DNA of 64,000 bases from an uncultured delta proteobacterium (lineage in GTDB: Bacteria; Desulfobacterota; Binatia; Binatales; Binataceae). Under the pieces are notes generated by a model. It ran no database searches. It worked only from the letters and a program-made list of their open reading frames with translations, and was not told the origin of the DNA. The position numbers and the translations under genes are program-made. The stretch covers positions 768,001 through 832,000 of the forward strand of contig CAWJET010000001.1 in NCBI GenBank assembly GCA_963842085.1, written 5' to 3'. Below are positions 52,887-53,277 of this stretch, piece by piece (the first letter of the stretch is position 1; each line of letters begins with the position of its first letter).

Positions 52887-53277
52887 TGTCATTCAGAGCG
52901 GAGTCTGCGGAGCGAAGAATCCCGGATCCTAATGTGCGAAAAACGTCGAGCCGCAAGAGACTATTACGTGTACCTGATGAGCAGTCCGTCTCGGACATTG
53001 TACGCCGGCGTGACCAATGACCTCGAGCGGCGTGTGAATGAGCACAAGGACGGCGTGTTCGATGGTTTCACAAAGCGTTACCGAATCAATCGCCTGGATT
53101 TATTTTCAAGAGACCAACGACATTGGCGCGGCGATTGCGGCCGAAAAACAGATCAAAAGGACTGTCGCGATCCAAAAAGATCGCGCTAATCGAGGCAGAG
53201 AATCCGAAGTGGCAGGACTTGAGCGATGAGTCCTAGAAAAAGACCGGGATTCTTCGCCGCGACGGCTCTGAATGACA
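52887..53277. mobile_element. Putative IR-bounded GIY-YIG cassette
   Basis: Left arm 52887-52925 and right arm 53244-53277 (13-bp perfect terminal IR TGTCATTCAGAGC/GCTCTGAATGACA plus inner GCGAAGAATCCCGG/CCGGGATTCTTCGC) enclose only the nuclease gene. Confidence 0.65.
52932..53236 (+). pseudogene. GIY-YIG nuclease family protein (UPF0213/YazA-like, about 100 aa) with two +1 frameshifts
   Basis: YYVYLM...LYAGVTNDL.RR..EH...GFTKRY...RL. Deleting one G (~53097) and one A (~53155-53158) restores IYFQE...AIAAEKQIKGLSRSKKIALIEAENPKWQDLS. Confidence 0.85.

What the first reader, a model, noticed from the sequence alone, without database searches (positions are those of the whole stretch)
52887..53277. 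GIY-YIG nuclease gene packaged between palindromic inverted repeats: candidate minimal mobile element
Seen: a gene of about 100 codons with GIY-YIG (UPF0213/YazA-like) motifs starts 6 nt after a left arm (TGTCATTCAGAGCGGAGTCTGCGGAGCGAAGAATCCCGG) and ends 7 nt before a right arm (CCGGGATTCTTCGCCGCGACGGCTCTGAATGACA). The arms pair through a 13-bp outer IR and a 14-bp inner IR, with asymmetric middles. The unit sits 7 nt after the prkA stop, splitting prkA from yeaH. Established: prkA/yeaG and yeaH are normally adjacent, and REP families are mobilised by cognate HUH (RAYT) transposases encoded between their repeats. Inference: a tiny GIY-YIG nuclease may play the RAYT-like role here. I recall no characterised mechanism for that, although CGTC/TGTC-type repeats themselves are known.
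Basis: partly seen in the sequence, partly recalled or inferred. Interest (0 to 1): 0.78.

Follow-up and report, generated by a model that had tools for sequence, protein, structure and literature searches.

The report
Ssn nuclease gene between its hairpin repeats
This is a small GIY-YIG nuclease gene bracketed by its own hairpin DNA repeats, a member of the Ssn single-stranded-DNA nuclease system that was described and tested in 2025, so it is real but largely already explained.

Summary
A gene of about 100 codons (52932-53236) carrying GIY-YIG motifs lies 6 nt after a 39-nt left arm and 7 nt before a 34-nt inverted right arm. It sits between prkA and yeaH. The arms belong to a dispersed repeat family with about 50 copies in this genome.

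This matches the published Ssn/SRM system (Chenal et al., Nat Commun 2025, PMC11893778). There, 94-aa GIY-YIG proteins bind (C/T)GTC-footed hairpin repeats in single-stranded DNA and cut just upstream. Many of their genes are flanked by these repeats on both sides. That paper already raises the RAYT/IS analogy, without showing mobility.

New here:
- The arms are a tandem G·A hairpin variant, and the published search pattern misses them.
- Arm types co-vary with nuclease lineages within one genus.
- The prkA-yeaH junction is empty, holds solo repeats, or holds the gene in different species of the genus.
- ssn alleles at that junction are far more diverged than the flanking genes.
- No near-identical copies or target duplications were found, and the gene is under strong purifying selection.

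The two frameshifts in the window are missing from contigs of 2 of 4 public runs, so an intact allele exists.

Verdict: new member of a known kind; mobility remains unproven.

The parts
50676..50714 (+). SRM hairpin repeat, left copy of a gene-less inverted doublet upstream of prkA
   Evidence: With its partner it folds as ssDNA at -30.6 kcal/mol, z -5.4.
50742..50775 (-). SRM hairpin repeat, right copy of the gene-less doublet (feet outward, short spacer)
50945..52879 (+). prkA (AAA_PrkA + PrkA C-terminal domain)
52887..52925 (+). Left arm: SRM hairpin repeat. TGTC foot, ATTC...GAAT stem, inner insert, then CCCGG.
52932..53236 (+). ssn-type GIY-YIG nuclease gene, about 100 codons. The window carries one extra letter at 53098 and one at 53155, so the frame changes twice.
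   Evidence: Contigs of X3 and X4 lack both letters.
53244..53277 (-). Right arm: the same SRM repeat in inverted orientation, with a different inner insert
53327..53347 (+). Truncated SRM copy (5' half only)
53355..53393 (+). Further full SRM copy, direct orientation
53434..53472 (+). Further full SRM copy, direct orientation
53651..54973 (+). yeaH (DUF444), the normal neighbour of prkA
   Evidence: In 10 of 31 genus junctions it starts 14-21 nt after the prkA stop.

Best explanation
The unit is an Ssn-family gene with its Ssn-related motifs (SRMs). The gene encodes a single-domain GIY-YIG endonuclease of about 100 residues. The two arms are copies of the hairpin repeat that this kind of enzyme recognises.

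By analogy with the tested relatives, each arm folds into a hairpin when the DNA is single-stranded. The top strand folds at the left arm and the bottom strand at the right arm. The protein binds the hairpin through the (T/C)GTC foot, the AT-first stem and the C after the stem. It then nicks the single strand a few nucleotides 5' of the foot. With both feet pointing outward, that places the cuts just outside the unit.

Shown here: the anatomy, the hairpin with compensatory changes, the association across phyla, co-variation of arms with nuclease lineage, and purifying selection.

Inferred from the 2025 paper: binding and cutting of ssDNA.

Unknown: the cellular role in this organism. Possibilities are restriction of incoming or exposed ssDNA, modulation of recombination next to repeats, or a domesticated former mobile element. 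The gene is best read as a long-lived, mostly vertically kept host-like gene, much as RAYTs are, not as an actively jumping element.
For: Anatomy of the window unit.

GIY-YIG is the only domain found. A second, intact 95-aa paralogue at G000:C1:166976-167260 is also bracketed by arms. Those arms differ from the window's but match each other.

Association with the hairpin:
- Genus/class sample: 27 of 29 genes have an SRM-like hairpin within 150 nt, 20 of 29 on both sides, 18 of 29 feet outward as here.
- Cross-phylum sample: 70 of 79, 48 of 79 and 37 of 79.
- Controls: 2 of 55 and 8 of 150.

Hairpin covariation in 64 distinct 28-nt arms:
- pair 7-23: TA 31, CG 20, GC 9, AT 3
- pair 12-18: GC 43, AT 18
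- tandem G·A / A·G kept in 58 and 56 of 64

Selection: dN/dS median 0.088 over 48 pairs.

Type-B arm cores occur 14 and 15 times in the two genomes that carry a type-B nuclease gene. They occur 0, 0 and 2 times in three genomes that do not.

Published biochemistry of relatives: PMC11893778, Results, section 10 and Discussion read. NTS = CGTCATTCCCGCGMAVGCGGGAATCYRG. The enzyme acts on ssDNA only and cuts upstream. 71% of homologues have an SRM nearby and 42% have one on both sides.
Against: - The arms fail the published degenerate SRM search pattern. It gives 28 hits in the genome against 35-38 in 5 shuffles, none in the window. It hits 0 of 29 and 0 of 79 gene flanks, although the same regex does match the Neisseria NTS core.
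- Assignment to cd10448 and similarity to a tested SsnA could not be computed here.
- As assembled, the window gene is frameshifted twice.
- SRM families persist without a matching nuclease. G004 has 18 type-A and 23 type-E cores but no Ssn-type gene was found. G000 has 44 type-E cores and no nuclease gene flanked by type E.
- No activity was measured for any member of this lineage.
Confidence: 0.85

Rival explanations
1. Active minimal mobile element. The GIY-YIG nuclease plays the part of a RAYT. Its nicks at the outward-facing feet, followed by host repair or recombination, move or copy the arm-gene-arm cassette and the solo and paired repeats.
For: - IS-like architecture, plus gene-less inverted doublets resembling REPINs. 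Among 57 core hits, 5 feet-outward doublets and 1 pair enclosing the gene (window 50676-50775).
- The prkA-yeaH junction in 31 genus genomes: 10 empty (14-21 nt), 7 with solo repeats, 3 with other inserts, 11 with the cassette.
- On a flank tree the cassette needs 10 changes for 11 rows, at least 5 of them forced by well-supported branches. That is no more clustered than shuffled labels.
- ssn synonymous divergence exceeds that of prkA in 36 of 36 pairs. Example: G009-G059 flanks 0.18 and 0.31, ssn saturated.
- A second site (hydrolase|ligase) is occupied in 2 of 30 genomes.
- Type-B repeats occur only with type-B genes.
Against: - The closest two ssn genes within one genome are 83% identical, so there are no recent copies among the loci examined.
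- dN/dS is 0.09.
- No target duplication was seen, and the inserted stretch at both sites extends beyond the arms.
- From established knowledge, GIY-YIG nucleases hydrolyse and do not form the covalent intermediate that HUH enzymes use for strand transfer.
- Turnover at the junction can equally come from homologous recombination through the conserved flanks.
- Repeat families A and E occur without a cognate gene.
- A read joint across the gene proved to be the paralogous doublet, not an excision product.
Confidence: 0.2
2. Homing-type element: a free-standing GIY-YIG homing endonuclease gene that has lodged in the loop of a pre-existing palindromic repeat and spreads between copies of that repeat.
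For: Gene-less doublets with the same arms exist. The gene sits exactly where the doublet's spacer would be.
Against: - The protein is a single domain of about 100 aa without the DNA-binding module of homing endonucleases.
- Only 1 of the 6 feet-outward pairs encloses a gene.
- There are no near-identical gene copies.
- Tested relatives do not cut dsDNA (PMC11893778).
Confidence: 0.04
3. RNA-level element: the arms act in the prkA-yeaH transcript, pairing with each other or as separate hairpins to stabilise, terminate or insulate the message. On this view the nuclease gene is incidental.
For: All parts lie on the operon's strand between two co-directional genes. REP-type hairpins are known to act on mRNA (Di Nocera 2013, abstract).
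Against: - The repeat occurs in both orientations with the same foot logic, which fits a DNA-strand signal. The tandem G·A exists on only one strand.
- No Rfam family matches.
- No terminator-like site lies in the arms.
- The tested relative does not bind RNA.
- The association is with the nuclease gene in many unrelated contexts.
Confidence: 0.07
4. Coincidence: ordinary dispersed repeats that happen to lie on both sides of an unrelated small gene.
For: The repeats are common in intergenic DNA of this genome. Three more copies follow the unit.
Against: 97 of 108 homologous genes have such a hairpin within 150 nt, against 10 of 205 controls. Arms co-vary with the gene.
Confidence: 0.01

Closest known systems
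Ssn family of site-specific ssDNA endonucleases with NTS/SRM repeats (SsnA of Neisseria meningitidis; Chenal et al., Nat Commun 2025, PMC11893778)
   Same: - Single-domain GIY-YIG protein of about 94-100 aa.
- Gene bracketed by inverted hairpin repeats.
- Repeat has a (C/T)GTC foot, a stem beginning AT(T/C)C, and a C after the stem.
- Tens to hundreds of further copies in the genome.
- Relatives in the same genus carry arms whose first 12 nt (GTCATTCCCGCG) equal the NTS.
   Different: - The window's arms and the commonest cross-phylum form have a 5-bp stem, a tandem G·A and a second short or variable stem, often with 10-20 nt inserts. The published SRM pattern does not find them.
- The host is a soil lineage not found in the paper's genome tables ('Binat' gave 0 hits in 10 readable supplement files).
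- No biochemistry exists for this lineage.
- Natural transformation, the role shown in Neisseria, is not known here.
CGTC/TGTC-tagged REPs (Di Nocera, De Gregorio, Rocco, BMC Genomics 2013, PMC3733652; abstract and CGTC section read)
   Same: Terminal CGTC or TGTC tag, stems starting with A-T pairs, a short unpaired tail and mostly head-to-head dimers. The Neisseria dRS3 repeat belongs to this class.
   Different: [quoted passage not shown] Here the stems are interrupted by G·A pairs and inserts, and a cognate nuclease gene lies between the repeats.
REP/REPIN-RAYT systems (HUH Y1 transposase between inverted REPs)
   Same: - A small nuclease gene flanked by inverted copies of the hairpin repeat that it recognises.
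- Dispersed solo and doublet copies.
- Low gene copy number, long persistence and purifying selection.
   Different: The enzyme is GIY-YIG, not HUH. It has no known strand-transfer chemistry. The genome's own RAYT-like gene has different, GC-rich REPs.
UPF0213 proteins (YhbQ/YazA; PDB 1zg2, 1ywl)
   Same: Small stand-alone GIY-YIG fold.
   Different: Only weak sequence similarity (E 2.6e-5 and 3.6e-3). A separate small GIY-YIG gene of another subfamily in this genome (C1:1345522) has no arms.

Membership tests
Ssn / SRM system (Chenal 2025) | Single-domain GIY-YIG protein of about 94 aa | tested here: met
   Pfam finds GIY-YIG only. The intact paralogue is 95 aa (51.3 bits) and the window gene's first 55 codons score 30.3 bits. 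The gene spans about 100 codons.
Ssn / SRM system (Chenal 2025) | Placement in CDD cd10448 (GIY-YIG_unchar_3) or the Ssn clade, or similarity to a tested SsnA | not testable with these tools
   No CDD and no Neisseria or Wolbachia protein was at hand. NCBIfam gives no hit. Indirect support: 7985 of 8000 scored candidates are homologues named 'GIY-YIG nuclease family protein' or 'putative endonuclease'.
Ssn / SRM system (Chenal 2025) | Catalytic motifs: Tyr of GIY, Tyr of YIG, Arg, Glu (Y6, Y17, E64 in Nm SsnA) | tested here: met
   Invariant Y6/Y9, Y19, R28/R29, E32/H33, E66 and N85 in alignment A1. The window gene has YVY, LYAG, ERRV, EHK and AEKQIK. Residue-for-residue equivalence to Nm SsnA is inferred, not aligned.
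Ssn / SRM system (Chenal 2025) | SRM hairpin repeats on both the 5' and 3' side of the gene | tested here: met
   Arms at 52887-52925 and 53244-53277. The same holds in 68 of 108 related loci.
Ssn / SRM system (Chenal 2025) | Oriented repeat: conserved three nucleotides (GTC) before the palindrome and a C right after it | tested here: met
   Window arms: TGTC-ATTC...GAAT-C. In 64 distinct 28-nt arms selected for HGTCAT at the start and ATC at 24-26, position 1 is T 58 / C 6. The GTC and the C after the stem were selection criteria there, so that call does not test them independently.
Ssn / SRM system (Chenal 2025) | Match to the published degenerate search pattern HGTCWYN(0-2)YYVSBRHN(0-5)WNVSBRGN(0-2)RNCYNB | tested here: not met
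   No hit in the window. 28 hits in the genome against 35-38 in shuffles. 0 of 29 and 0 of 79 gene flanks. The regex itself works on the NTS core.
Ssn / SRM system (Chenal 2025) | Many further copies of the repeat in the genome | tested here: met
   57 core hits with up to 1 mismatch. 36 exact type-A and 44 exact type-E cores, reversed-pattern control 0.
Ssn / SRM system (Chenal 2025) | Binds and cuts only single-stranded DNA, a few nucleotides upstream of the hairpin | not testable with these tools
   Needs purified protein and oligonucleotides.
CGTC/TGTC-tagged REPs (Di Nocera 2013) | CGTC/TGTC tag, stem starting A-T, T-A, short tail, head-to-head dimers | tested here: met
   definition.
CGTC/TGTC-tagged REPs (Di Nocera 2013) | Stem of 8-9 bp with a loop of 4-5 nt | tested here: inconclusive
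   The 28-nt form has 5 bp, then G·A/A·G, then 2 bp and a 3-nt loop. The window arms carry longer inserts.
REP/REPIN-RAYT | HUH (Y1) tyrosine transposase encoded between the repeats | tested here: not met
   The enclosed gene is GIY-YIG. The one Y1_Tnp/REP_Tyr_transpos-like gene lies elsewhere with other repeats.
GIY-YIG homing endonucleases | Nuclease domain joined to a DNA-binding domain; intron, intein or phage context | tested here: not met
   Single domain of about 100 aa, between two chromosomal operon genes.
Insertion sequence / MITE-forming transposon | Several near-identical copies and target-site duplications | tested here: not met
   Closest same-genome gene pair is 83% identical. 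No duplication at either insertion site.

The most novel reading that the evidence does not exclude
The arm-gene-arm cassette is, or recently was, a mobile unit of a new mechanistic kind. A GIY-YIG nuclease nicks ssDNA hairpins at both outward-facing feet, and host repair or recombination then installs the cassette and its solo repeats at preferred sites, such as directly after a stop codon. This would make Ssn the long-missing mobiliser of the CGTC/TGTC-tagged REPs. It would also explain why the same prkA-yeaH junction holds deeply diverged ssn alleles in closely related species.
Probability: 0.2. Interest if true: 0.8.

Novelty: new member of a known kind. Interest (0 to 1): 0.3.

Why it matters
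Taken alone, the locus adds a soil-bacterial member to a family published in 2025, so it is not a discovery.

Three points may help people who work on Ssn or on REP biology:
1. The commonest arm form next to ssn genes in Acidobacteriota, Chloroflexota and many other phyla is a tandem-G·A hairpin. The published SRM pattern does not detect it, so published repeat counts for such genomes are probably too low. In the paper's own table, Chloroflexus aggregans has an SsnA homologue but 30 SRMs against 33 in shuffles.
2. One genus offers several co-varying nuclease/arm pairs, ready-made material for specificity studies.
3. The prkA-yeaH junction is a natural test bed for the open question of whether these cassettes move. 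Empty, solo-repeat and filled states occur among close relatives, and the ssn alleles there are much older than their flanks.

Tried and rejected
- Rfam at E up to 1 on 50400-53800: only three chance-level matches, none on the arms.
- NCBIfam: no family for the nuclease.
- Published SRM regex: no enrichment in the genome and no hit at any gene flank.
- Paper searches:
  - GIY-YIG + 'repetitive extragenic palindromic' + mobile: 0 papers.
  - GIY-YIG/REP/RAYT: nothing relevant in the 15 listed.
  - UPF0213/YhbQ/YazA/COG2827: swamped by surnames.
  - SsnA follow-ups from 2024 on: only the original paper.
- Excision product: the joint 52927->53247 seen in contigs of all four runs has 28 other letters between its sides. 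These equal the spacer of the gene-less doublet at 50676-50775, so it is that paralogue and not an excised form.
- Target-site duplications: none recognisable at the prkA-yeaH site or the hydrolase|ligase site. Spacers of empty and filled alleles do not align beyond a few bases.
- A generic 'GTC + 5-bp stem + C' detector over the whole genome was no better than shuffles (3473 against about 3400), so it was replaced by family-specific cores.
- The median ssn dS printed includes uncomputable pairs coded -1 and is not used.
- Promoter/terminator scan: nothing above shuffles.
- I did not fold the protein, search fold libraries or run a complex prediction, since the family was settled by other means.

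Full report
**Observation.**
- prkA ends at 52879 and carries the Pfam domains AAA_PrkA and PrkA.
- Seven nucleotides later comes a 39-nt left arm (52887-52925).
- Six nucleotides later comes an ATG at 52932, with the stop TAG at 53234-53236.
- Seven nucleotides after the stop comes a 34-nt right arm (53244-53277).
- yeaH (DUF444) starts only at 53651.

The arms share a 13-bp outer and a 14-bp inner inverted repeat, with unlike middles. The arm core is not a chance match:
- 7 matches in the window against 0.08 expected, with 0 of 100 shuffles reaching 7.
- 57 matches of the 13-nt core with up to 1 mismatch in the 4.93-Mb genome. About 50 of these carry the whole repeat.

Among those 57 hits, six pairs stand feet outward. 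Five are 61-75 nt apart with nothing between them. One of these lies just upstream of prkA at 50676-50775 and folds as single-stranded DNA at -30.6 kcal/mol, z -5.4. Only one pair encloses a gene, and that is the finding.

**The gene.** The first 55 codons match Pfam GIY-YIG (30.3 bits). As assembled, the reading frame moves twice by +1.

Logan contigs of four soil-metagenome runs were laid on the stretch.
- In X3 and X4, contigs cover the gene without any substitution. They lack exactly one letter at 53098 and one at 53155, which are the two frame breaks.
- In X1 and X2, contigs equal the window.

So an intact allele exists in public data. Both extra letters abut CCTGG and GATC. From recall, such sites give systematic long-read errors, so the pseudogene state may be an artefact. 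I could not settle that.

The genome has only two other small GIY-YIG genes.
- One (C1:166976-167260) is an intact 95-aa paralogue. It is also bracketed by arms that differ from the window's but match each other, with changes on both sides.
- The other (C1:1345522) belongs to a different subfamily and has no arms.

**Relatives.** I searched 41 related genomes with the intact paralogue, and 24 had a match. Script one search showed that nearly every close copy is bracketed by inverted arms, and that the arms fall into classes in which left and right agree:
- A: TGTCATTC(A/T)AGAGCGAAGCGAAGAATCCCGG
- B: TGTCATTCCCGCGCG...CGCGCGAGGAATCCCGG
- B': the same with CATGCC...GGCATC, a compensatory change inside one arm
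- C: TGTCATCCCGAGCG.AGCCGAGGGACCCCGG
- the paralogue's own type

The B' class and the closest same-genome gene pair rest on G018, which is unpublished.

A scan of one genome per species with a profile of the family gave 595 confirmed places. The best 80 lie in many phyla: Acidobacteriota, Chloroflexota, Cloacimonadota, Gemmatimonadota, Cyanobacteria, Planctomycetota, Verrucomicrobiota, Bacteroidota, Nitrospinota, Bacillota and two candidate phyla.

I then applied a simple rule: GTC, then A plus three bases, then their complement followed by C within 50 nt. Results:

| Sample | Hairpin within 150 nt | Both sides | Feet outward (as here) | Inverse | Control stretches 600 nt away |
|---|---|---|---|---|---|
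| Genus/class | 27 of 29 | 20 of 29 | 18 of 29 | 1 of 29 | 2 of 55 |
| Cross-phylum | 70 of 79 | 48 of 79 | 37 of 79 | 10 of 79 | 8 of 150 |

**Hairpin structure.** I took 64 distinct 28-nt arms that were not selected on the pairs being tested. They show compensatory change:
- pair 7-23: TA 31, CG 20, GC 9, AT 3
- pair 9-21: TA 47, CG 14
- pair 12-18: GC 43, AT 18, CG 2
- pair 13-17: CG 50, TA 4

A tandem G·A / A·G is kept in 58 and 56 of the 64. Each arm is therefore a hairpin with a fixed 5' foot and a fixed C after the stem.

**What it is.** A paper search led to Chenal et al., Nat Commun 2025 (PMC11893778). I read Results parts 1-2 of 4, section 10, Methods section 17 and the Discussion, and I searched the ten readable supplement tables. 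Four PDF supplements could not be read.

The paper reports the following:
- SsnA of Neisseria meningitidis is a 94-aa single-domain GIY-YIG protein of CDD family cd10448.
- It binds the repeat CGTCATTCCCGCGMAVGCGGGAATCYRG only as single-stranded DNA and cuts a few nucleotides upstream.
- It does not act on duplex DNA, RNA or the complementary strand.
- The three bases before the palindrome matter most for cutting, and the C after it matters most for binding.
- Homologues from three other species cut their own repeats.
- 71% of homologues have such a motif (SRM) nearby, and 42% have one on both sides.
- The Discussion says that the NTS-ssnA-NTS layout is that of an insertion sequence, compares it with REPs and their tyrosine transposases, and proposes domestication. 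It shows no movement.

Di Nocera et al. 2013 (PMC3733652; abstract and CGTC section read) had classed such repeats as CGTC/TGTC-tagged REPs that 'apparently lack a dedicated transposase'.

The window's unit has the same parts in the same order, so I file it as a member of this system. Two membership tests could not be run: CDD assignment, and similarity to a tested SsnA.

One test failed. The published degenerate SRM pattern finds 28 sites in this genome against 35-38 in shuffles, and none in the window. It finds 0 of 29 and 0 of 79 gene flanks, although my regex does match the Neisseria core. The arms here are thus a variant that the pattern was not built to catch. The strings CTGAGCG and GAGCGAAGCGAAG do not occur in the readable supplements. 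The paper's own table lists Chloroflexus aggregans with an SsnA homologue but 30 SRMs against 33 in shuffles.

- *Do the repeats track a RAYT?* No. The genome's one Y1_Tnp-like gene (C1:1118798-1119241) scores 75.6 bits on NCBIfam REP_Tyr_transpos, just under the cut-off of 80. It is flanked by its own GC-rich inverted repeats, up to 100% complementary over 28 nt, and not by these arms.
- *Are GIY-YIG genes flanked more often than chance?* Yes.
- *Do relatives carry the gene at this locus without arms?* Not as a rule. Most junction copies have both arms.

**Does it move?** I examined 31 genus genomes in which both the prkA end and the yeaH start were found:
- 10 junctions are empty, with a 14-21 nt spacer. 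One of these rests on the unpublished G023.
- 7 hold one or two solo repeats.
- 3 hold other inserts.
- 11 hold the arm-gene-arm cassette, usually with more repeats behind it.

On a quick maximum-likelihood tree of 2.1 kb of flanking prkA and yeaH, the cassette needs 10 changes for 11 rows. Well-supported branches force at least 5 of them, and shuffled labels do as well.

For nine cassette-bearing genomes, synonymous divergence of ssn exceeds that of prkA in 36 of 36 pairs:
- prkA: 0.18-0.48
- ssn: 0.35-2.3 in 23 pairs, 26.7 in one, not computable in 12

In the closest flank pair (G009-G059; prkA 0.18, yeaH 0.31), ssn is saturated with dN 0.12. The gene is short (86 codons), so these figures are rough, but the gap is large.

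A second site, between a hydrolase gene and a ligase-like gene, holds the paralogous cassette in 2 of 30 genomes and a remnant in 1. It is short in 22 and holds another gene in 5.

These results show turnover. Several other results argue against ongoing transposition:
- The closest two ssn genes within any one genome are 83% identical.
- dN/dS is 0.088, median of 48 pairs.
- No target duplication is visible, and the inserted DNA reaches beyond the arms.

Recombination through the conserved flanks would explain the turnover as well.

**Do repeat families follow the nuclease?** Partly. Exact core counts, both strands, with reversed-pattern controls of 0-1:

| Genome | A | B | C | E |
|---|---|---|---|---|
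| G000 | 36 | 0 | 4 | 44 |
| G017 | 37 | 14 | 32 | 0 |
| G010 | 4 | 15 | 4 | 0 |
| G012 | 6 | 2 | 6 | 3 |
| G004 | 18 | 0 | 0 | 23 |

- Type B is abundant only where a type-B gene is present (G017, G010).
- G017 has type A without a type-A gene found.
- G004 has types A and E although no Ssn-type gene was found there (96% complete).
- No gene flanked by type E was seen in any genome. So repeats can outlive, or do without, a matching gene.

**Verdict.** It is out of date in calling this uncharacterised, and it is unproven on mobility. The locus is a new member of a known kind, with a variant repeat.

The most novel reading still open is that such cassettes are mobile through GIY-YIG nicking of ssDNA hairpins plus host repair. 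I give it about one chance in five.

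Noticed in passing
window 53520-53590 (+); G000 genome-wide: A third dispersed element: TGACGGAACGAA followed by a hairpin (ACCGATGGTGGTG...CCACCACCTATGGT). It has 49 copies with up to 1 mismatch on both strands of the genome, and it is present in 14 of the 32 prkA junction loci scanned, with or without ssn. 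In about a dozen genome copies it lies 250-290 nt downstream of a type-E repeat on the same strand, with conserved blocks between, as if part of a composite repeat of about 400 nt. Rfam has no match.
   Followed up: partly
G000 genome-wide, e.g. C1:2485432, C2:273509-273945: A second SRM-like family (type E: TGTCATCCTGACGAAGCGAGCAACGCGAGCGGCAGGAAGGATCTC). There are 44 exact 13-nt cores, often in tandem runs. No nuclease gene flanked by it was found in any genome examined. G004 also has 23 copies.
   Followed up: partly
G000:C1:1118798-1119241 (L002 798-1241): A RAYT-like gene (Pfam Y1_Tnp 34.1 bits; NCBIfam REP_Tyr_transpos 75.6 bits, cut-off 80) flanked by its own GC-rich inverted REPs (CAGTGGGGCGGGCCGCCGTGCCCGCCAT). 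This genome therefore carries a classical REP/RAYT pair alongside the Ssn/SRM system.
   Followed up: partly
L124 (G041), prkA-yeaH junction: The 211-nt insert with the TGACGGAACGAA hairpin is followed by a second copy of the last ~27 nt of prkA (..AACAATCTGTGGAAGGATTGA) and then the usual short spacer. This looks like an insertion with a long target duplication.
   Followed up: no
G000:C1:1345522-1345728 and flanks: The arm-less small GIY-YIG gene of another subfamily contains a direct duplication of about 27 nt (GAAGCGATGAGCCGGGAGTGGCA twice). The duplication brings a TGA into the frame.
   Followed up: no
L008 (G024:C37), also L034, L050, L086, L094: In a minority of loci (1 of 29 and 10 of 79), the hairpins flank the gene with their feet pointing inward, the opposite of the window's layout.
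   Followed up: no
window 52870-52937 and 53244-53277 in runs X1-X4: Summed contig depth over the arms is 95-256 against 5-14 over the gene between them. The arm sequence is therefore shared by many more molecules or organisms in these soil samples than the gene is.
   Followed up: no
L020 (G001) and L032 (G007): Two other ssn copies show frame trouble in their assemblies: a shifted C-terminus in L020 and a missing residue in the YIG motif in L032. As with the window, it is open whether these are real or assembly errors.
   Followed up: no
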